NCBI RefSeq assembly: GCF_050920415.1
Contig: NZ_CP169309.1
Source of the DNA: Escherichia coli
GTDB taxonomy: Bacteria; Pseudomonadota; Gammaproteobacteria; Enterobacterales; Enterobacteriaceae
Length of the DNA stretch: 64,000 nt
Strand: one strand, 5' to 3'
The position numbers and the translations under genes are program-made. Below are positions 34,238 to 57,829 of the stretch, piece by piece (within the stretch, counting starts at the first letter, position 1; every line of letters begins with the position of its first letter). A model generated the notes under the pieces. That model saw only the letters and a list, made by a program, of their open reading frames with translations. It was not told the origin of the DNA and did no database searches.

Positions 34238-36130
34238 TTACATCACCAGACGGCGAATGTCAGACAGCGTGTTGTTAATGATGGTAATGAAACGGGCACC
34301 ATCAGCACCGTCGATCACGCGGTGGTCGAAGGAGAGAGAAATCGGCAGCATCAGACGCGGCACGAACTCTTTACCATTCCACACCGGCTCCATCGCGGAC
34401 TTGGAAACGCCTAGGATAGCCACTTCCGGCGCGTTCACAATCGGCGCGAAGTGGGTAGTACCCAGGCCGCCGATGCTGGAGATGGTGAAGCAACCGCCCT
34501 GCATTTCGCCCGCAGTCAGCTTACCGTCACGCGCTTTCTTAGAAATAGTCATCAGCTCGCGAGACAGCTCGATGATGCCTTTCTTGTTGACGTCTTTGAA
34601 TACCGGAACAACCAGGCCGTTCGGGGTATCCACCGCCACACCGATGTTGATGTATTTCTTCAGGGTCAGACGCTGACCGTCTTCCGACAGAGAACTGTTG
34701 AAGCGAGGCATCTGCTCAAGTGCCGCAGCAACGGCTTTCATGATGAAGACAACTGGGGTTATCTTCACATCCAGCTTACGTTTCGCTGCTTCTTCGTTCT
34801 GCTGTTTACGGAACGCTTCCAGCTCAGTGATATCGGTTTTGTCGAAGTGAGTAACATGCGGGATCATCACCCAGTTACGGCTCAGGTTCGCACCAGAGAT
34901 TTTCTGGATGCGGCCCAGTTCCACTTCTTCGATTTCACCAAACTTGCTGAAGTCCACCTTCGGCCACGGCAGCATGCCAGGGATACCGCCGCCAGTTGCC
35001 GCCGGAGCCGCTTCTGCACGTTTGATCGCTTCTTTCACGTAAGCCTGAACGTCTTCGCGCAGGATACGACCTTTACGGCCAGTGCCCTTCACTTTCGCCA
35101 GGTTAACGCCAAATTCGCGTGCCAGACGGCGGATCAGCGGAGTCGCGTGAACGTAAGCGTCGTTTTCAGCAAACTCAGATTTGCCTTCTGCTTTCGCAGC
35201 CGGTGCTGCTGCCGGAGTTTCAGCTTTTGCTGCCGGAGCCGGCGCTGCCGCTTCCTGTTTCGCAGGAGCTGCCGCAGGTGCTGCGCCTTCAACTTCGAAG
35301 ATCATAATCAGCGAGCCAGTTTTCACTTTGTCGCCAACGTTGACTTTCAGTTCCTTCACGACGCCTGCAAACGGAGCCGGAACTTCCATAGAAGCTTTAT
35401 CGCCTTCTACGGTGATCAGTGACTGTTCAGCGGCAACTTTGTCGCCCACTTTCACCATCACTTCGGTCACTTCAACTTCGTCACCGCCGATATCCGGAAC
35501 GTTAACTTCTTTCACGCCAGCCGCTGGTGCAGGGGCCGCTGCCGGAGCCGCTTCCTGTTTAGCCGCCGGAGCTGCCGCGCCTGCTTCACCCGCGACTTCG
35601 AAGACCATAATCAGCGAGCCGGTAGACACTTTGTCACCCACGGTCACTTTGATCTCTTTCACGGTGCCTGCAAACGGAGCCGGAACTTCCATAGAAGCCT
35701 TGTCGCCTTCTACGGTGATCAGCGACTGTTCAGCTTCAACTTTGTCGCCCACTTTCACCAGGATTTCGGTCACTTCGACTTCATCGCTGCCGATATCCGG
35801 AACATTTACGTCTTTTGCCGCCGCAGCCGCGGGTGCTGCTGCCGGAGCTGCTTCTTTCTTCTCTTCTGCCTGAGCAGGTGCAGCGTCAGCTGCACCGTCG
35901 GCGGAATCGAAAATCATAATCAGTGCGCCGGTCTGGGTTTTATCGCCAACAGAGACTTTGATCTCTTTAACGATACCCGCCTGCGGAGACGGTACTTCCA
36001 TAGAGGCTTTGTCGCCTTCTACGGTGATCAGCGACTGTTCGGCTTCAACTTTGTCGCCCACTTTGACCAGGATCTCGGTGATTTCAACTTCATCAGCCCC
36101 GATGTCCGGTACTTTGATTTCGATAGCCAT
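34238..36130 (-). CDS. aceF: Pyruvate dehydrogenase E2 (dihydrolipoamide acetyltransferase), three lipoyl domains
   Basis: ORF 630 aa; three tandem lipoyl domains ([10 protein letters not shown] x3) separated by Ala/Pro linkers; catalytic DHRVIDG motif. Confidence 0.96.
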
Positions 36131-36144
36131 TATTCTTTTACCTC

Positions 36145-38808
36145 TTACGCCAGACGCGGGTTAACTTTTTCTGCATCGATGTTGAATTTGGCGATTGCGT
36201 CAGCAACCACTTTCTTATCGATTTCGCCACGTTTAGCCAGTTCGCCCAGCGCCGCAACCACGACATAAGAAGCATCAACTTCGAAGTGGTGACGCAGGTT
36301 CTCACGGCTGTCGGAACGACCGAAGCCATCAGTACCCAGTACGCGGTAGTCGTCAGCCGGTACGTAAGTACGGACTTGCTCAGCGAACAGTTTCATATAG
36401 TCGGTAGATGCCACTGCCGGAGCGTCGTTCATCACCTGAGCGATATACGGAACGCGCGGAGTTTCCAGCGGGTGCAGCATGTTCCAGCGCTCACAATCCT
36501 GACCATCACGCGCCAGTTCGGTGAAGGATGTCACGCTATATACGTCAGAACCTACGCCGTAATCTTTCGCCAGGATCTCTGCCGCTTCACGGACGTGACG
36601 CAGGATAGAACCGGAGCCGAGCAGCTGAACTTTACCTTTGCTACCTTCAATGGTTTCGAGTTTGTAGATACCTTTACGGATACCTTCCTCAGCACCTTCC
36701 GGCATTGCCGGCATGTGGTAGTTTTCGTTCAGCGTAGTGATGTAGTAGTAAACGTTCTCTTGTTTCTCACCGTACATACGCTCCAGACCATCATGCATGA
36801 TGACAGCAACTTCGTAAGCGTAAGCCGGGTCGTAAGAAATACAGTTCGGGATAGTCAGCGACTGAATGTGGCTGTGACCATCTTCGTGCTGCAGACCTTC
36901 GCCGTTCAGGGTGGTACGACCGGAAGTACCGCCGATCAGGAAGCCACGTGCCTGCTGGTCGCCAGCAGCCCAGCACAGATCGCCGATACGCTGGAAGCCG
37001 AACATCGAGTAATAGATGTAGAACGGAATCATCGGCAGATTGTTGGTGCTGTAAGAGGTCGCCGCTGCCAGCCAGGAGCAACCTGCGCCCAGCTCGTTGA
37101 TCCCTTCTTGCAGAATCTGACCTTTCTCGTCTTCTTTATAGTAAGCAACCTGCTCGCGGTCCTGCGGGGTGTACTGCTGACCGTTCGGGCTGTAAATACC
37201 AATCTGACGGAACAGACCTTCCATACCGAAAGTACGCGCTTCGTCGGCGATGATCGGCACCAGACGATCTTTGATCGACTTGTTCTTCAGCATCACGTTC
37301 AGGGCACGAACGAAAGCGATAGTGGTAGAGATCTCTTTGCTCTGCTCTTCCAGCAGCGCGCCGAAGTCTTGCAGGCTCGGCAGCTCCAGCTTCTCGGTGA
37401 AGTTCGGCTGGCGGCTTGGCAGATAACCGTGCAATTTCTGACGCTGAGCGTGCAGATAGGTATGCTCTTCAGAACCTTCCGGGAAGGTGATGTACGGCAG
37501 TTTTTCGATATCAGCATCAGACACCGGCACATTGAAACGGTCGCGGATATGACGCACGCCGTCCATGTTCATTTTCTTAACCTGGTGCGCGATGTTTTTA
37601 CCTTCAGCTGCGTCGCCCATGCCGTAACCTTTAATGGTATGAGCAAGGATTACTGTCGCTTTGCCTTTGGTTTCCTGCGCTTTCTTGAATGCAGCGTAGA
37701 TTTTCTTCGGATCGTGACCACCACGGTTCAGCGCCCAGATCTGCTCATCAGTCCAGTCTGCAACCAGAGCTGCGGTTTCCGGATATTTACCGAAGAAGTG
37801 TTCACGAACGTACGCACCATCTTTCGATTTGAAGGTCTGGTAGTCGCCGTCAACGGTTTCGTTCATCAGCTGGATCAGTTTACCGCTGGTATCTTTACGC
37901 AGCAGCTCATCCCAACGGCTACCCCACATCACTTTGATCACGTTCCAGCCTGCACCTTCGAAGATGCCTTCCAGTTCGTTGATGATCTTGCCGTTACCGG
38001 TGACCGGGCCGTCAAGACGCTGCAGGTTACAGTTGATAACGAAGACCAGGTTATCCAGTTTTTCACGGGTAGCGATGGTGATCGCACCTTTGGATTCTGG
38101 TTCGTCCATCTCGCCGTCGCCGAGGAAGGCGTAAACGGTCTGTTTAGAAGTATCTTTCAGGCCACGGTGTTCCAGATATTTCAGGAATTTAGCCTGGTAA
38201 ATAGCACCAATCGGACCCAGACCCATAGATACGGTCGGGAACTGCCAGAATTCCGGCATCAGTTTCGGGTGCGGATAGGAAGAGAGGCCATTGCCGTGAA
38301 CTTCCTGACGGAAGTTATCCAGCTGCTCTTGAGTCAGACGACCTTCCAGGAAAGCACGTGCGTAAACGCCCGGGGAGATGTGGCCCTGGAAGTAAACCAG
38401 GTCGCCGCCATCCTGCTCGTTGCGCGCACGGAAGAAGTGGTTAAAGCACACATCATAAATGGTTGCGGACGACTGGAAGGACGCCATGTGGCCGCCCAGT
38501 TCGAGGTCTTTTTTCGACGCACGCAGAACCGTCATGATGGCGTTCCAGCGGATAGCTGAACGAATACGGCGTTCCAGTTCCAGATTACCCGGATACTCCG
38601 GTTGTTCTTCAACGGGGATGGTGTTGATGTAGTTGCTGATACCGGTGCCTGCGGCTACGTTGACACCGCCTTTGCGGGCTTCAGCAAGCAGTTGGTCGAT
38701 CAGATACTGAGCACGCTCAACACCTTCTTCACGGATGACCGATTCGATCGCCTGGAGCCAGTCGCGAGTTTCGATCGGATCCACGTCATTTGGGAAACGT
38801 TCTGACAT
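36145..38808 (-). CDS. aceE: Pyruvate dehydrogenase E1 component
   Basis: ORF 887 aa [24 protein letters not shown]...; thiamine-diphosphate enzyme. Confidence 0.96.
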
Positions 38809-38968
38809 GGGTTATTCCTTATCTATCTAATAACGTTGAGTTTTCTGGAACCTGTCCCATTGAACTCTCGCAGGAAAGCTCAATAAGACAGGTTCTACGT
38901 TTAGTTGCCGCGCTTTTATATGCGCTTGATTTACAACATCTTCTGGATAATTTTTACCAGAAAAATCA

Positions 38969-39733
38969 CTAATTCTTTCGTTGTTCCAGACGACGCAGAG
39001 AACGCTCACGGCGGCTCTCTTCACGGCTTCTGTCGAGCAAAATTTCTTCGATAAAGGCCAGATGGCGATGCGATGCTTCGCGCGCTTCTTCCGGCTTACC
39101 GGCCATAATCGCTTCGAATATGCGAGTGCGGTGACTACTCACCAGCGGCAGCATCTCGCGACGCGAATAGAGCAATTCGAAGTTCTGACGGACATTCTGA
39201 GCCAACATCGGCTCCATACACCTTAGCAGATGAAGCAGAACTACATTGTGGGCTGCTTCGGTGACGGCAATCTGATACTGGAGGACGGCGTTTGATTCCG
39301 CGTCCAGATCGCCAGACTGCTGCGCCAGCTCTATGGCGTGGTGGAGTTCACGGATGCGTTCCTTGTCTTCATCGGTACTACGCAGCGCGGCGTAATAGGC
39401 GGCGATACCTTCCAGGGCGTGTCGTGTTTCGAGCAAGTCATACTGTGATTCAGGATGGTCGGAGAGCAGCTCCACCAGCGGATCGCTGAAACTTTGCCAG
39501 AGGCTGCTCTGAACAAAAGTGCCGCCACCCTGGCGACGAAGCAACAAGCCCTTTGCTTCGAGACGTTGAATCGCCTCACGCAAGGAGGGACGGGAGACGT
39601 CGAACTGTTTCGCCAGTTCGCGTTCCGGTGGGAGTTTTTCGCCCGGGCGGAGTGTGCCTTCGAGGATCAAAAACTCCAGTTGCTGCTCAATCACATCGGA
39701 GAGTTTTGGTTGGCGGATTTTGCTGTAGGCCAT
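38969..39733 (-). CDS. pdhR: GntR-family pyruvate-responsive transcriptional repressor
   Basis: ORF 38969..39766; recognised start [21 protein letters not shown] (ATG 39733); N-terminal GntR wHTH. Confidence 0.93.
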
Positions 39734-50186: not shown

Positions 50187-50368
50187 GATGCGACGCTGGC
50201 CTGATAAGACGCGGGCAGCGTCGCATCAGGCATCGTGTGCAAATGTCGGATGCGGCGGGAACGCCTTATCCGACCTGCAAGATCTTTTATATCAACGTGT
50301 TAAAAAATTGTAGGCCTGATAAGACGCGCCAGCGTCGCATCGGGCATCCAGTGTAAATGTTGGATGCC
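50187..50368. repeat. BIME: cluster of 3-4 REP palindromic units
   Basis: Repeated gcctgataagacgcg...cgtcgcatcaggc and gtcggatgcggcg...gccttatccgac units in alternating orientation. Confidence 0.8.
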
Positions 50369-50781: not shown

Positions 50782-50809
50782 AAAAAAGGCGCAGAATCCT
50801 GCGCCTTTT
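50782..50809. terminator. Bidirectional rho-independent terminator between secA and mutT
   Basis: aaaaaa-ggcgcag-aatc-ctgcgcc-tttt. Confidence 0.8.
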
Positions 50810-50826
50810 ACTTCAACTGTTAGCTT

Positions 50827-53532
50827 TTATTGCAGGCGACCGTGGCACTGCTTGTATTTTTTACCAGAACCGCACGGGCAAGGATCATTACGTCCAACTT
50901 TGCGTTCACCAGTTTGTGCCGCCAGTGCAGCTGCGGCTGCAGAGTCGTCATCCTGATGGCTAAGCTGCTGCATTTGCGCTAAACGCTCGGCTTCCATACG
51001 ACGCTGTTGTTCCAGCTCCTCAACCTCTTCAGGCATACGTACCTGAACTTTGCTCAGCGTGCTGATAACTTCATATTTCAACGACTCCAGCATCGCTGCA
51101 AACATGGAGAACGATTCACGTTTGTATTCCTGCTTCGGATCTTTCTGTGCATAGCCACGCAGGTGGATACCTTGACGCAGATAATCCATCGCCGCCAGGT
51201 GCTCTTTCCACAGGGAGTCAAGCGTTTGCAGCATGACGCCTTTCTCGAAGTGACGCATCATCTCAGCGCCAACCACTTCTTCTTTACGCTGATACACTTC
51301 GATGGACTGCGCCAGAATACGCTCACGCAGCGTCTCTTCATGCAGTTCTGGCTCTTTGTCCAGCCACTCGGCAATCGGCAAATCGAGGTCGAAATCGTTC
51401 TTCAGACGTTCCTGCAGCCCCGGAATATCCCACATTTCTTCCAGCGACTGCGGCGGAATGTAGGCATCGATGGTCGCTTTGAACACATCTTCACGAATGC
51501 TGTTGATGGTATCGCTCACATCGCTGACATCCAGCAGTTCATTACGCTGGGAGTAAATGGCGCGACGCTGATCGTTAGCCACGTCATCATATTCCAGCAG
51601 TTGCTTACGAATATCGAAGTTACGGCTTTCAACTTTACGCTGAGCGTTGGCAATCGCTTTGGTCACCCACGGGTGCTCGATGGCTTCGCCTGGTTTCATA
51701 CCCAGTTTACGCATCATGCCGGAAACACGGTCAGAAGCAAAAATACGCATCAGCGCATCTTCCATCGACAGGTAGAAACGGGAAGAACCGGCATCCCCCT
51801 GGCGCCCAGAACGACCGCGTAGCTGGTTATCGATACGACGAGATTCGTGACGTTCTGTACCGATGATATGCAGACCACCTGCAGCCAGTACCGCATCGTG
51901 ACGCACCTGCCAGTCGGCTTTGATTTTTTCAATTTGCTCTGCGGTCGGATTTTCCAGCGCGGCAACTTCTGCCTGCCAGCTACCACCGAGCACAATATCT
52001 GTACCACGACCCGCCATGTTAGTCGCGATAGTCACCGCCGCGGGATAACCCGCTTGTGCAACAATCGCTGCTTCGTTAGCGTGGAATTTGGCGTTCAGAA
52101 CGTTGTGTTTGATACCGGCTTTGGTCAGCTCGTTTGACACCAATTCCGATTTTTCGATGGAGATAGTACCCACCAGCACCGGCTGGCCTTTCGCAGTACG
52201 TTCTTTGATATCTTCAATGATCGCCTGAATTTTTTCCGCTTCAGTCATGTAGACCAGGTCCGGCAGATCTTTACGAATCATTGGACGGTTGGTCGGAACA
52301 ACGACGGTATCCAGCTTATAGATGGAGCTGAATTCGAAAGCTTCGGTATCAGCAGTACCGGTCATCCCCGCCAGTTTTTCATACAGACGGAAGTAGTTCT
52401 GGAAGGTGATCGACGCCAGCGTCTGGTTTTCGTTCTGGATCTGTACACCTTCTTTCGCTTCCACTGCCTGATGCAGGCCATCGGACCAACGACGTCCCTG
52501 CATGGTACGACCGGTGTGTTCGTCAACGATGATAACTTCACCATCTTTAACGATGTAGTCGACGTCTCGGGTAAACAGCGCATGAGCGCGCAGCGCCGCC
52601 GTTACGTGGTGCATCAGCATGATGTTGGCCGGAGAGTACAGAGACTCCCCTTCATCCATGATGCCTTCTTTCACCAGCAGTTCTTCAATCAGCACCAGAC
52701 CACGTTCGGTCAGGTTCACCTGGCGAGATTTTTCGTCCACCGAGAAGTGGCCTTCGCCCTGGAAGGTTTCGGAGTCTTCTTTTTCCTGACGGATCAGGTG
52801 CGGAATAATTTTATTCACGCGTTTATACATTTCCGAGCTGTCTTCTGCCGGGCCGGAAATGATCAGCGGTGTACGCGCTTCATCGATCAGGATGGAGTCC
52901 ACTTCGTCCACCAGCGCATAGTGCAGTTTACGCTGTACACGTTCTTCAGGGCTGAACGCCATGTTATCGCGCAGGTAGTCAAAGCCGTATTCGTTGTTCG
53001 TACCGTAAGTGATGTCAGCTGCGTAAGCTTCACGCTTCGCCGGTGCTGGCATGCCCGGCAGGTTGATACCGACAGTCAGGCCAAGGAATTCAAACAGCGG
53101 ACGGTTGTTTTCGGCGTCACGTTGCGCCAGGTAGTCGTTGACGGTAACAACGTGTACGCCCTTACCGGTTAATGCGTTCAGGTAAGCAGGCAGCGTTGCG
53201 GTCAGGGTTTTACCTTCACCGGTACGCATTTCCGCGATGCAGCGTTCGTTAAGAACCATACCGCCGAGTAACTGAACGTCGAAGTGACGCATACCAAAGA
53301 CGCGCTTACTTGCCTCACGCACCACAGCGAAAGCTTCTGGGATCAGATTTTCCAGCACTTCGCCTTTTTCCAGACGTGCACGAAACTCTGCGGTTTTCCC
53401 TTTCAGTTCTTCGTCGGAGAGTTTTTCCATCTCCGGTTCCATGGCATTGATGATGTTGACGACTTTGCGCATCCGGCGCAGGGTGCGATCGTTACGACTA
53501 CCGAAAACTTTAGTTAATAATTTGATTAGCAT
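50827..53532 (-). CDS. secA: Protein translocase ATPase SecA
   Basis: ORF 901 aa [23 protein letters not shown]...; C-terminal zinc-binding [14 protein letters not shown]. Confidence 0.97.
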
Positions 53533-55354: not shown

Positions 55355-56506
55355 TTAATCAGCTTGCTTACGCAGGAATGCTGGGATATCCAGATAATCC
55401 GGCTCTTTCGCAGTTTGCGGTGCGTTGTCATTCACGACTTTAGCAACCGGTTTCTGCTCCTGAGTCAGCGGTGCCATCCCGTGCTGCTGGTAGCGATCCA
55501 TCACTGGCTGCTGAACCTGCTTATTGGTCACCAGGGTGATTTCAGGACGTTTGTCCATACCGATACCTGTCGCAACAACGGTTACGCGCAGCTCGTCATT
55601 CATATCCGGGTCAAGAGAAGTACCGATAACCACAGTTGCGTTGTCGGATGCAAATGCACGGATGGTGTTACCTACCGTTTCGAACTCATCCAGACGCAGG
55701 TCGAAGCCCGCCGTGATGTTAACCAGCACGCCGCGCGCGCCAGACAGATCGATATCTTCCAGCAGCGGAGAGGAGATAGCCATTTCAGCAGCTTCTTCCG
55801 CACGGTCTTCGCCGCTCGCCACACCAGAACCCATCATTGCGTAGCCCATTTCAGACATTACGGTACGTACGTCTGCAAAGTCCACGTTCATCAGGCCTGG
55901 ACGAGTAATCAGTTCAGCGATACCTTGCACAGCACCTTTCAGTACATCGTTCGCTGCGCCAAATGCATCCAGCAGGGAGATACCGCGGCCCAAGACTTTC
56001 AGCAGTTTGTCGTTAGGGATAGTGATCAGAGAGTCCACATGCTTGGACAGTTCAGTGATCCCCTGCTCAGCGAATGCCATACGCTTCTTGCCTTCAAAGT
56101 TGAAAGGCTTAGTCACGACAGCAACGGTCAGGATCCCCAAATCTTTTGCCACTTCAGCGACAACTGGTGCTGCACCTGTACCGGTACCACCACCCATACC
56201 CGCAGCAATAAAGACCATGTCTGCACCTTCCAGCGCCGCACGCAGTGCATCGCGATCCTCATCAGCCGCATTACGGCCAACTTCTGGATTTGCGCCAGCT
56301 CCCAGTCCTTTGGTGATACCGCTACCGATTTGAATCGTCTGTCCAACCGCTGTTTTACGCAGCGCTTGTGCATCGGTATTTACCGCGAAGAATTCAACAC
56401 CTTCAATGCGCTCGCGCACCATGTGTTCAACAGCATTACCGCCGCCGCCGCCGACGCCGATGACTTTAATCACCGCGTCATTGGTAAGTTCCATTGGTTC
56501 AAACAT
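55355..56506 (-). CDS. ftsZ: Cell division GTPase FtsZ
   Basis: ORF 383 aa; tubulin signature GGGTGTG. Confidence 0.98.
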
Positions 56507-56566
56507 AGTTTCTCTCCGATTTGTGCCTGTCGCCTGAGGCCGTAATCATCGTCGGCCTCATAAAAA

Positions 56567-57829
56567 TTAAAACTCTTTTCGCAGCCAACTATTGAGTCGC
56601 TTGATCCACGAGCCAACTGATGCTGTAACACGTTTTTCTACTTCAGCTTCACCGTTAAGATGTGACTCTTTCCCATAGTGAAGCAATCCCACCGCCGTCG
56701 AATAATACGGCTCCTGAGCATAATCCGTTAAACCGGTAATGTTCAGCGGCGCGCCGATACGCACTTGCGTATGAAACACGCGCTGAGCACAGGCTGCAAG
56801 ACCTTCGATCTGCGCTGCGCCACCAGTTAAAACAATGCCTGCCGCCAGGTGATGTTTAACCCCTTGTTGGCGAAGCTTTTCCTGCAACTGCAATATCTCT
56901 TCGTTGACCAGGTTGAGCAGCTCGGTATAGCGCGGCTCGATCACCTCTGCCAGGGTCTGACGTTGCAGACTCCGCGGTGGACGACCGCCTACGCTCGGCA
57001 CTTCCACGCTCTCATCTTTTCCAACGATGGAACCCAGCGCACAACCGTGGCGAACTTTAATCGCTTCGGCGTCGCTTGGCGGCGTGCCAAAGGCGTAAGC
57101 GATATCACTGGTCACGACATTGCCAGCATAAGGAATTACCTTAGTGTGGCGCAATGCCCCACCGGTATAAACGGCGATATCCATTGTACCACCACCGATA
57201 TCGACGACGCAGACACCCAGTTCACGTTCATCTTCCGTCAATACCGAATAACTTGATGCCAGTCCGGCAAATATCAGTTGGTCAACTTTCAGCCCACAAC
57301 GTTCAACCGCTTTGACGATGTTTTTCGCCATATCGTTGTGACATGTGATCAGATGCACTTTTGCCTGCATCCGCACGCCCGAAAGTCCTACCGGATTCTT
57401 GATCCCTTCCTGATAGTCAATCGCATACTCTTGCGGGATCACATGCAGCACACGATGCTCATCGCGCACACGCACTGATTTCGCGGTATGGACGACGTTT
57501 TCCACATCTTCTTGCGTCACTTCTTCTTCAGAAATAGGCACCATACCAATTTCATTCTGGCAGCTGATGTGCTTACCAGAAAGCGCCAGATATACCGAAG
57601 AGATCTGACAATCTGCCATCAATTCTGCCTGGTCAATGGCGCGTTGTACGCACTTGACCACGGATTCGAGGTCGTTTACCCCGCCTTTATCCATACCACG
57701 CGACGGGCAGCTGCCCACGCCAATGATATTGACCATACCGTCGGGCAGAACTTCCCCTACTAAAGCGGCAACCTTCGCGGTACCAATCTCCAGTCCTACT
57801 ACCAGTTTTCTGTCCGTCGCCTTGATCAT
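56567..57829 (-). CDS. ftsA: Cell division protein FtsA (actin-like ATPase)
   Basis: ORF 420 aa [26 protein letters not shown]... Confidence 0.97.

What the first reader, a model, noticed from the sequence alone, without database searches (positions are those of the whole stretch)
35280..36130. Three ~300-bp tandem direct repeats encoding the aceF lipoyl domains
DNA segments such as ttctacggtgatcagcgactgttcggcttcaactttgtcgcccactttgaccagg recur with high identity at ~36015, ~35705 and ~35405, each encoding a lipoyl domain followed by an Ala/Pro linker. Such long near-identical repeats are recombination substrates and can collapse in short-read assemblies.
Basis: seen in the sequence. Interest (0 to 1): 0.25.

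Follow-up and report, generated by a model that had tools for sequence, protein, structure and literature searches.

The report
aceF lipoyl-domain tandem repeats
This is the textbook threefold repeat at the start of the E. coli aceF gene, encoding the three swinging lipoyl domains of pyruvate dehydrogenase; it is ordinary, although its copies are less alike than claimed and they do occasionally recombine to give two- or four-domain versions.

Summary
Three head-to-tail units (periods 303 and 309 nt) lie on the minus strand at 35207-36121, inside aceF (34238-36130). The operon is pdhR-aceE-aceF-lpdA. Each unit encodes a ~76-residue lipoyl domain (lipoyl-lysines K41, K144, K245) plus an Ala/Pro linker. 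The protein differs from K-12 AceF by two residues and matches PDB 7b9k over its full length.

"Near-identical" is overstated. Whole units are 71-79% identical in DNA and domain cores 75-85%. Synonymous divergence is 0.46-0.92, and the longest exact shared runs are only 20-33 nt.

The recombination idea is nevertheless borne out:
- At least 8 of 5,423 complete E. coli genomes carry in-frame two-domain alleles, and one clone of four genomes carries an out-of-register 192-nt deletion.
- No complete genome carries four domains, but four-domain alleles occur in draft E. coli contigs and on chromosome-sized Salmonella contigs.
- Junctions map to the conserved core around the lipoyl-lysine or to short linker repeats.
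- The same variant proteins occur on DNA backgrounds about 1% apart, so the events recur.

Collapse in short-read assemblies was not shown and looks unlikely unless k is 33 or less.

Verdict: already known, low interest.

The parts
34238..36130 (-). aceF coding sequence (630 aa), the E2p dihydrolipoyllysine-residue acetyltransferase of the pyruvate dehydrogenase complex
   Evidence: ORF list and translation. NCBIfam PRK11854 scores 1099 bits. PDB 7b9k_A matches residues 1-630. The DNA is 100% identical to aceF of E. coli MFDS1022581.
35894..36121 (-). Lipoyl domain 1 (aa 4-79); lipoyl-lysine K41 codon at 36008-36010
   Evidence: Pfam Biotin_lipoyl, 3 stretches. DKA motif at residue 41.
35813..35893 (-). 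Linker 1 (aa 80-106), Ala/Pro/Glu/Lys-rich
   Evidence: Translation. A +3 Ala polymorphism was seen here in strain 2014EL-1346-6.
35585..35812 (-). Lipoyl domain 2 (aa 107-182); lipoyl-lysine K144 codon at 35699-35701
35510..35584 (-). Linker 2 (aa 183-207), Ala/Pro-rich
35282..35509 (-). Lipoyl domain 3 (aa 208-283, the innermost); lipoyl-lysine K245 codon at 35396-35398
   Evidence: PDB 1qjo and 2k7v (E. coli lipoyl domain) match aa 206-284 and 206-293.
35153..35281 (-).
   Evidence: Translation. A -4 aa polymorphism was seen in strain LF3-1.
35045..35152 (-). Peripheral-subunit (E3/E1) binding domain, aa 327-362
   Evidence: Pfam E3_binding, E = 1.8e-16. PDB 4qoy_E (aa 327-372) and 8oqj (aa 315-380).
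34244..34936 (-). Catalytic acetyltransferase domain (aa 399-629), with the DHRxxDG motif at aa 602
   Evidence: Pfam 2-oxoacid_dh, E = 2.4e-80. PDB 4n72. Motif found.
35666..35731 (-). Core of domain 2 (aa 134-155, [22 protein letters not shown]). It holds the longest exact runs shared with domain 1 (32 nt) and domain 3 (33 nt). The homologous cores are at 35990-36040 (domain 1) and 35363-35428 (domain 3). This is the crossover hot-spot.
   Evidence: Runs measured. Breakpoints of the two-domain alleles of C2, C4, Rb-50, VTB97379v and 01_3327 map here, as do the hybrid domains of four-domain proteins P0001 and P0002.
36145..38808 (-). aceE (E1p), the upstream gene of the operon
   Evidence: NCBIfam TIGR00759 scores 1645 bits. 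Annotation of the identical locus.
32489..33913 (-). lpdA (E3), downstream gene. The annotated CDS is 1425 nt; the longest ORF runs on to 33946.
   Evidence: NCBIfam TIGR01350 scores 501 bits. Annotation.
38969..39733 (-). pdhR, GntR-family repressor of the operon (annotated CDS of 765 nt)
   Evidence: NCBIfam PRK09464 scores 495 bits. Annotation.
34206..34229 (-). GC-rich hairpin followed by a T run, immediately after the aceF stop codon (terminator-like)
   Evidence: Read from the alignment (GCCGGCC-CAAC-GGCCGGC-TTTTTT). Not tested further.

Best explanation
The feature is the 5' half of aceF, the E2p core subunit of the E. coli pyruvate dehydrogenase complex. A tandem triplication of a unit of about 303 nt encodes three lipoyl domains of about 76 residues, each followed by a flexible Ala/Pro-rich linker of 25-43 residues.

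Established biochemistry of this family gives the mechanism. Each domain carries lipoic acid on the lysine of a DKA turn (K41, K144, K245). The domain swings between E1p (reductive acetylation), the E2p catalytic core (acetyl transfer to CoA) and E3 (re-oxidation). The three domains act redundantly.

At the DNA level the copies have diverged. Purifying selection on the protein, and probably codon bias, leave only a conserved core around the lipoyl-lysine codon with 20-33 nt exact runs. My inference is that these short tracts, plus 13-17 nt repeats in the linkers, occasionally serve as crossover or slippage points. That would give in-frame two-domain (deletion) and four-domain (duplication) alleles that recur at low frequency in natural E. 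coli and Salmonella.
For: Shown here:
- Three in-register units, periods 303 and 309.
- Three Biotin_lipoyl matches, plus E3_binding and 2-oxoacid_dh.
- Equivalog-level matches for aceF, aceE, lpdA and pdhR.
- Full-length match to the E. coli E2p cryo-EM chain 7b9k and to lipoyl-domain NMR structures 1qjo and 2k7v.
- DKA lysines at 41, 144 and 245, and DHRxxDG at 602.
- dN 0.10-0.18 against dS 0.46-0.92 between units, which indicates purifying selection.
- The same 924-nt repeat region is found in 5,423 of 5,426 complete E. coli genomes.

Copy-number variants:
- Two-domain alleles occur in complete genomes C2, C4, Rb-50, VTB97379v, DSM 103263, FDAARGOS_1283, 01_3327 and 03_3013. For the seven whose loci were fetched (all but 03_3013, which was not fetched), aceF is 1584-1593 nt; all have no internal stop and keep two DKA motifs.
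- Their junctions fall in the core or in linker repeats.
- Reciprocal four-domain proteins P0001 and P0002 carry dom2N/dom1C and dom3N/dom2C hybrids.
- The exact 527-aa and 529-aa alleles are seen on 454 and 182 contigs.
- They sit on DNA backgrounds differing by 40-57 nt per 4584 nt, and come from different assemblers.

Literature:
- One domain suffices in vitro (Guest et al. 1985, as quoted in PMC5013485).
Against: Nothing argues against the identification. The points below concern the recombination part.
- The variants are rare: at least 8 two-domain and 4 aberrant genomes among 5,423 complete genomes, and no four-domain genome there.
- The duplicated 303 nt in every four-domain contig examined are 303/303 identical. 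That fits very recent events, but it also fits an assembler passing twice through a de Bruijn loop at the shared 33-mer.
- C2 and C4 come from one study, so a pipeline artefact cannot be excluded for them.
- No reads were available to verify any variant.
- Lipoylation and enzyme activity were not tested here. They are taken from the literature on the same protein, which differs by 2 residues.
Confidence: 0.97

Rival explanations
1. The two- and four-domain alleles are not biological. They would be assembly artefacts: the shared 32-33-nt core makes a loop in a de Bruijn graph, and passing through it 0 or 2 times gives exactly the hybrids seen. On this view the repeat never changes copy number in nature.
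For: - The hybrid junctions coincide with the longest exact runs.
- The duplicated segments in four-domain contigs are always 303/303 identical.
- Four-domain alleles are absent from 5,426 complete genomes but present in drafts.
- Several ENA proteins (P0011, P0016, P0018, P0024, P0026, P0031) are clear cross-species chimeras, showing that this region does mis-assemble in metagenomes.
- C2 and C4 come from the same study.
Against: - Two-domain alleles occur in genomes deposited as complete from unrelated projects: FDAARGOS_1283, Rb-50, VTB97379v, DSM 103263, 01_3327 and 03_3013.
- Two junctions lie in 13-17-nt linker repeats, too short to loop at usual k.
- The 527-aa allele appears in contigs named k119 (MEGAHIT-style), in SPAdes-style scaffolds and in NCBI isolate assemblies. 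Its aceF is 0-1 nt different from that of complete genome 01_3327 in three unrelated records, as expected for a lineage that inherits it.
- Four clonal genomes (439, 446, 447, 463) match with the same 192-nt-shorter span; the out-of-register deletion itself was read only in strain 463.
- Exact runs of at most 33 nt are shorter than the final k-mers and read lengths of modern assemblers (my inference).
Confidence: 0.2
2. The DNA similarity between units is actively maintained by ongoing gene conversion between the copies (concerted evolution), rather than by protein-level selection on anciently diverged copies.
For: - Units 2 and 3 are closer to each other (84.6% DNA, dS 0.46) than either is to unit 1.
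- Among 150 distant AceF relatives, 85 of 218 domains in multi-domain proteins have their nearest neighbour within the same protein.
- Several E. coli polymorphisms in domain 2 match the base of a paralogous domain.
Against: - dS of 0.46-0.92 means the copies are far from homogenised.
- Domains 1 and 2 of a related three-domain protein (P0143) pair with E. coli domains 1 and 2 rather than with each other, which indicates orthology.
- Salmonella and Citrobacter domain 1 keeps the E. coli domain-1 signature SPQAG...KTxTG.
- Paralogue-matching at third-codon positions is expected often by chance, and only four alleles were compared. The test is inconclusive.
Confidence: 0.2
3. The three copies in this window are themselves an assembly error, and the true copy number in the source strain differs.
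For: None specific.
Against: - The 1893-nt gene is identical to a complete genome (MFDS1022581), and every full-length row listed in a sample spread across the ranking of 5,424 matching complete genomes spans 1893 nt.
- All 5,423 genomes with the repeat region cover at least 80% of it.
- The three units differ at 15-25% of positions in their domain cores, so they are easy to tell apart.
Confidence: 0.01

Closest known systems
E. coli K-12 AceF (UniProt P06959; PDB 7b9k full length; 1qjo innermost lipoyl domain), the E2p of the pyruvate dehydrogenase complex
   Same: Length is 630 aa in both. The architecture is the same: three lipoyl domains, a binding domain and a catalytic domain. The lipoyl-lysines are K41, K144 and K245, and the operon is pdhR-aceE-aceF-lpdA. 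Only two residues differ (T163N, T305A), and 45 of 1893 nt.
   Different: Nothing structural. The allele belongs to an uncommon lineage: only 9 of 5,424 complete genomes are at least 99% identical. In this allele the longest exact run between units 2 and 3 is 33 nt, against 23 nt in K-12.
Engineered E. coli AceF with 1, 2 or up to 9 lipoyl domains. Sources: Guest et al. 1985 J Mol Biol 185:743, quoted in PMC5013485; Dave, Guest & Attwood 1995 Microbiology 141:1839, listed in PMC11754459; Machado et al. 1992, from my own knowledge.
   Same: The natural 527-530-aa alleles found here are in-frame hybrids with two lipoyl domains. The 731-733-aa alleles have four.
   Different: These variants arose spontaneously in wild isolates, with junctions in the natural shared core or in linker repeats. 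They were not made by restriction-site deletion in vitro.
Natural loss of AceF lipoyl domains in the reduced genomes of Serratia symbiotica (PMC5013485)
   Same: One or two Biotin_lipoyl domains are lost from an otherwise conserved AceF.
   Different: That case is part of endosymbiont genome erosion across species. Here it is a low-frequency polymorphism within free-living E. coli.
Two-lipoyl-domain E2p chains, the commonest state among AceF relatives
   Same: Same domain order and the same catalytic core.
   Different: Among the 150 best representatives at 50% clustering, domain counts are 1 (46 proteins), 2 (95), 3 (8) and 4 (1). The three-domain state of E. coli is therefore a minority.

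Membership tests
AceF / E2p, dihydrolipoyllysine-residue acetyltransferase of the pyruvate dehydrogenase complex (NCBIfam PRK11854, TIGR01348) | Whole-protein score above the curated equivalog cut-off | tested here: met
   PRK11854 scores 1099.1 bits (cut-off 722). TIGR01348 scores 1038.8 bits (cut-off 552.1).
AceF / E2p | N-terminal lipoyl domain(s) with the lipoyl-lysine in a DKA turn | tested here: met
   Three Biotin_lipoyl stretches. DKA at residues 41, 144 and 245. 1qjo and 2k7v match aa 206-284 and 206-293.
AceF / E2p | Peripheral-subunit binding domain between the lipoyl domains and the core | tested here: met
   Pfam E3_binding at aa 327-362, E = 1.8e-16.
AceF / E2p | C-terminal 2-oxoacid dehydrogenase acyltransferase domain with the catalytic DHRxxDG motif | tested here: met
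   PF00198 at aa 399-629, E = 2.4e-80. DHRVIDG at residue 602.
AceF / E2p | Operon context with homodimeric E1p (aceE) and E3 (lpdA), under PdhR | tested here: met
   TIGR00759 scores 1645 bits, TIGR01350 501 bits and PRK09464 495 bits for the neighbouring ORFs. Annotation of the identical locus.
AceF / E2p | Lipoylation of the three lysines and acetyltransferase activity | not testable with these tools
   Inferred from near-identity (2 residues differ) to the experimentally characterised K-12 protein.
Tandem direct repeat that is a homologous-recombination substrate | At least two head-to-tail copies with a constant period | tested here: met
   Three copies, spacings 303 and 309. TRF score 883.
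   Units are 71-79% identical and cores 75-85%. Exact runs are 20-33 nt and dS is 0.46-0.92.
Tandem direct repeat that is a homologous-recombination substrate | Copy-number variants with in-register junctions inside the shared sequence | tested here: met
   Two-domain alleles in at least 8 complete genomes and four-domain alleles in drafts. Junctions lie in the core or in linker repeats. Read-level confirmation was not possible.

The most novel reading that the evidence does not exclude
Lipoyl-domain number in AceF may be a recurrent natural polymorphism (3 to 2, and 3 to 4) within E. coli and Salmonella, not a fixed species character.
- The same two-domain and four-domain proteins arise independently on backgrounds about 1% apart.
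- Junctions are focused on the 20-33-nt core around the lipoyl-lysine codon.
- At least one two-domain allele (527 aa, seen on 454 contigs) appears to be inherited within lineages.
- NCBI's annotation pipeline labels that in-frame allele a pseudogene.

If real, this offers a natural experiment on why E. coli keeps three domains when one is enough for catalysis.
Probability: 0.65. Interest if true: 0.3.

Novelty: already known. Interest (0 to 1): 0.12.

Why it matters
The repeat itself is textbook. [quoted passage not shown]

Two practical points do follow from the checks:
- The copies are diverged enough (exact runs of 33 nt or less) that modern isolate assemblies should resolve them. A three-domain call here can be trusted.
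- Rare two- and four-domain alleles exist in public genomes, and some are annotated as pseudogenes. Length variants of aceF should therefore not be dismissed, or trusted, without looking at reads.

The low-frequency polymorphism could be used to ask what selective value the second and third domains have in nature.

Tried and rejected
- **Listing the odd records.** 43 records were below 95% identity in the 924-nt repeat-region search, but the tool cannot list the bottom of a ranking. I used synthetic collapsed and duplicated alleles as queries instead. About 31 of the 43 remain unexamined and may be divergent lineages or further variants.
- **Single-gap breakpoint mapping with L003/L004 as references.** Their own linker indels made the result misleading. 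I repeated it with 1893-nt references. Breakpoint intervals are still approximate, because the true parental allele of each variant is unknown.
- **Gene conversion between units.** Four alleles were compared. Paralogue-matching polymorphisms exist but are expected by chance at third positions. Left as inconclusive.
- **Domain nearest-neighbour analysis on 50%-clustered representatives.** It suggests lineage-specific duplication or homogenisation, but the sampling is too sparse to date the E. coli triplication.
- **Literature searches for natural aceF lipoyl-domain copy-number variation.** They found only the Serratia symbiotica case. The Klebsiella aceF papers concern loss-of-function mutants, not domain number.
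- **Single-domain alleles in complete E. coli genomes.** Probably absent: such an allele should cover only about half of the 924-nt repeat region (my estimate), and every genome covers at least 80% of it. No dedicated single-domain query was run.
- **Structure prediction.** Not run, because solved structures of essentially the same protein exist.

Full report
**1. The observation**

The interval holds a real tandem repeat.
- The repeat finder reports one family of three 300-nt copies at 35232-35531, 35535-35834 and 35844-36143, with spacings of 303 and 309 nt.
- Tandem Repeats Finder reports period 303, 2.7 copies, 80% matches and score 883.
None is expected in shuffled sequence.

**2. What it encodes**

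The repeat lies on the minus strand inside the ORF 34238-36130 (630 aa).
- Pfam finds three Biotin_lipoyl stretches, an E3_binding domain (aa 327-362) and a 2-oxoacid_dh catalytic domain (aa 399-629).
- NCBIfam places the protein in the AceF equivalog PRK11854, with 1099 bits against a cut-off of 722.
- The neighbouring ORFs fall in aceE, lpdA and pdhR.
- The protein matches the cryo-EM chain 7b9k of E. coli E2p from end to end. The innermost-domain NMR structures 1qjo and 2k7v match aa 206-284 and 206-293.
- It differs from K-12 AceF at two residues (T163N, T305A) and at 45 of 1893 nt.
- The DNA is 100% identical to aceF of E. coli MFDS1022581, where the locus is annotated pdhR-aceE-aceF-lpdA.

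In window coordinates:

| Part | Residues | Window coordinates |
|---|---|---|
| Unit 1 | aa 4-106 | 35813-36121 |
| Unit 2 | aa 107-207 | 35510-35812 |
| Unit 3 | aa 208-308 | 35207-35509 |

The lipoyl-lysines are K41, K144 and K245, and the catalytic DHRVIDG motif is at residue 602.

**3. How similar the copies really are**

They are less similar than stated.

| Measure | Units 1 and 2 | Units 1 and 3 | Units 2 and 3 |
|---|---|---|---|
| Whole-unit DNA identity | 75% | 71% | 79% |
| 76-codon core, DNA identity | 77.6% | 75.4% | 84.6% |
| Longest exact run (window allele) | 32 nt | 20 nt | 33 nt |
| Longest exact run (K-12) | 32 nt | 26 nt | 23 nt |
| Nei-Gojobori dS | 0.80 | 0.92 | 0.46 |
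| Nei-Gojobori dN | 0.15 | 0.18 | 0.10 |

Core amino-acid identities are about the same as the DNA values. The copies are old and under purifying selection. High DNA identity is confined to a core around the lipoyl-lysine ([17 protein letters not shown]...). "Long near-identical repeats" is an overstatement.

**4. Mechanism**

This part rests on established knowledge of the family, supported by papers read here. [quoted passage not shown] Those of E. coli are 73% identical and act redundantly while shuttling the lipoyl group between E1p, the E2p core and E3 (PMC8421416). One domain is enough for activity in engineered constructs (Guest et al. 1985, as quoted in PMC5013485). Lowering the lipoyl-domain content lowers growth rate and yield, according to the title of Dave et al. 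1995, which is listed in PMC11754459. None of this was tested here. It is inferred from near-identity to the studied protein.

**5. Are the repeats recombination substrates?**

*Protein search.* A search for AceF relatives unexpectedly ranked E. coli, Salmonella and Citrobacter proteins of about 723-738 aa above the normal 630-aa form. Reading them shows four lipoyl domains.
- P0002 (731 aa; this length is shared by 15 listed sequences) has the order dom1, dom2, a dom3N/dom2C hybrid, dom3.
- P0001 (733 aa) has the order dom1, a dom2N/dom1C hybrid, dom2, dom3.

These are the products expected of unequal crossover within the shared core.

*Complete genomes.* I then queried 5,426 complete E. coli genomes with synthetic duplicated and collapsed alleles.
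- No four-domain allele was found.
- Two-domain alleles were found in eight genomes: C2, C4, Rb-50 and VTB97379v (529 aa, dom2N/dom3C hybrid), DSM 103263 (528 aa), FDAARGOS_1283 (530 aa), and 01_3327 and 03_3013 (the locus fetched from 01_3327 encodes 527 aa with a dom1N/dom2C hybrid; 03_3013 gave the same match but was not fetched).
- All fetched alleles are in frame, with two DKA motifs and an intact catalytic domain.
- Breakpoints map to the core (aa 137-156 aligned with 238-257, or aa 42-48 with 145-151). In two cases they map to 13-17-nt repeats in the linkers.
- Strain 463 carries an out-of-register 192-nt deletion between the two VGDKV motifs of adjacent domains. Strains 439, 446 and 447, whose records have consecutive accessions and near-identical lengths, match with the same shortened span, so all four probably carry it.

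*Wider collection.* Exact-sequence look-ups show how often each allele is seen:

| Allele | Contigs |
|---|---|
| 527 aa (two-domain) | 454 |
| 529 aa, C2 type (two-domain) | 182 |
| 530 aa (two-domain) | 22 |
| 731 aa (four-domain) | 4 |
| 733 aa (four-domain) | 2 |

The 529-aa allele sits in a cluster of 305 sequences; those listed are 528-530 aa.

*Backgrounds.* Contigs carrying the 527-aa allele fall into at least three DNA backgrounds that differ by 40-57 nt per 4584 nt, and they come from differently named assemblers. The five contigs carrying the 731-aa allele differ by 13-31 nt per 2196 nt. At least one has the short aceF-lpdA spacer (no ERIC element) and two the long one. The same events have therefore recurred on different backgrounds.

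**6. Caveats**

- In the four 4-domain contigs tested, the duplicated 303 nt are 303/303 identical. Four-domain alleles are also missing from complete genomes.
- A de Bruijn loop at the shared 32-33-mer would generate the same two products, so some draft-genome variants may be artefacts.
- Several ENA proteins are plainly cross-species chimeras. This shows that the region mis-assembles in metagenomes, though by mis-joining rather than collapse.
- Against a purely artefactual origin: two-domain alleles occur in complete genomes from unrelated projects. Some junctions lie in very short linker repeats. Three unrelated records have aceF within 0-1 nt of the complete genome 01_3327. The 192-nt-shorter span is reproduced in four genomes of what appears to be one clone.
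- I could not examine reads.

**7. Wider context**

Among the 150 best AceF representatives at 50% clustering, the number of lipoyl domains is 1 in 46 proteins, 2 in 95, 3 in 8 and 4 in 1. Three domains is therefore a minority state. In multi-domain proteins, 85 of 218 domains have their nearest neighbour within the same protein. That fits repeated lineage-specific duplication or homogenisation. However, E. coli domains 1 and 2 pair with domains 1 and 2 of a related three-domain protein, which suggests orthology within the order. A small test for gene conversion among E. coli alleles was inconclusive.

**8. Verdict**

- The identification as aceF lipoyl-domain repeats is correct and long known.
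- The similarity is overstated.
- The recombination idea is supported by rare natural two- and four-domain alleles.
- The assembly-collapse worry is unproven, and for modern isolate assemblies it is unlikely.
- The finding is ordinary. The only mildly new element is the recurrent copy-number polymorphism in public genomes. I found no description of it in three literature searches.

Noticed in passing
window 33947-34090 (minus strand), aceF-lpdA spacer: An insertion of about 144 nt sits in the aceF-lpdA spacer. It contains CCCCAGGAGCTTACAT and AAGTAAGTGACTGGGGTGAG, which match the ERIC1R and ERIC2 primer sequences (from my own knowledge), so it is an ERIC/IRU element. It is present in the window, K-12, C2, VTB97379v and 01_3327 (spacer of 324 nt). 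It is absent in Rb-50, FDAARGOS_1283, 463, C4 and DSM 103263 (207 nt).
   Followed up: partly
window 38811-38924 (+): Rfam match to the sRNA family tp2 (102.8 bits, gathering score 50). It lies in the pdhR-aceE spacer, on the strand opposite to the operon.
   Followed up: no
window 56498-56587 (-), 50782-50851 (-), 50198-50275 (-): Rfam gathering-level matches to PssrA (105.5 bits), STnc40 (81.8 bits) and naRNA4/CssrE (73.5 bits), elsewhere in the window.
   Followed up: no
L002:3001-4701 (E. coli strain 463; strains 439, 446 and 447 match with the same span): A 64-codon in-frame deletion in aceF joins the C-terminal-half VGDKV motif of lipoyl domain 2 to the N-terminal-half VGDKV motif of domain 3. 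The event is out of register and exploits the internal two-fold symmetry of the domain. The resulting 566-aa protein has an aberrant '1.4-domain'. The exact protein is seen on 6 contigs.
   Followed up: partly
L009:1501-3084 (E. coli 01_3327, NZ_CP074961.1): The RefSeq annotation marks this aceF as a pseudogene ('partial in the middle of a contig; missing N-terminus'). In fact it is an intact in-frame 527-aa two-lipoyl-domain allele that starts at the normal ATG. That exact protein occurs on 454 contigs.
   Followed up: yes
Proteins P0011, P0016, P0018, P0024, P0026, P0031 (ENA metagenome assemblies): These AceF proteins of 697-735 aa have an extra lipoyl or binding domain whose sequence signature comes from a different Enterobacteriaceae species than the rest of the protein. 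They are probably chimeric joins through the conserved repeat core in mixed-species assemblies.
   Followed up: partly
Proteins P0033, P0035, P0025 (Salmonella enterica; P0033 and P0035 on chromosome-sized contigs of 4.47 and 4.68 Mb): These are four-lipoyl-domain AceF proteins in Salmonella. P0035 (serovar Pullorum) has the order dom1, 2N/3C hybrid, 3N/2C hybrid, dom3, which needs more than one exchange event.
   Followed up: no
Proteins P0034 (680 aa) and P0037 (668 aa), E. coli: Other internal in-frame duplications occur in aceF: 50 residues spanning the peripheral-subunit binding domain in P0034, and 38 residues inside lipoyl domain 2 in P0037.
   Followed up: no
window 34238-36130 and flanks: The window's aceF is 100% identical to E. 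coli MFDS1022581 but only about 97.6% identical to K-12. Only 9 of 5,424 complete genomes are at least 99% identical. Differences are spread along aceF (45 of 1893 nt) and aceE (28 of 1486 nt), so the source is simply an uncommon E. coli lineage.
   Followed up: partly
window 34451-35422 (+) and 35181-35873 (+): Long ORFs of 323 and 230 aa lie antisense to aceF, across the Ala/Pro-linker and repeat region. They are most likely artefacts of the GC-rich, stop-poor complement of GCN/CCG codons. They were not searched against any database.
   Followed up: no
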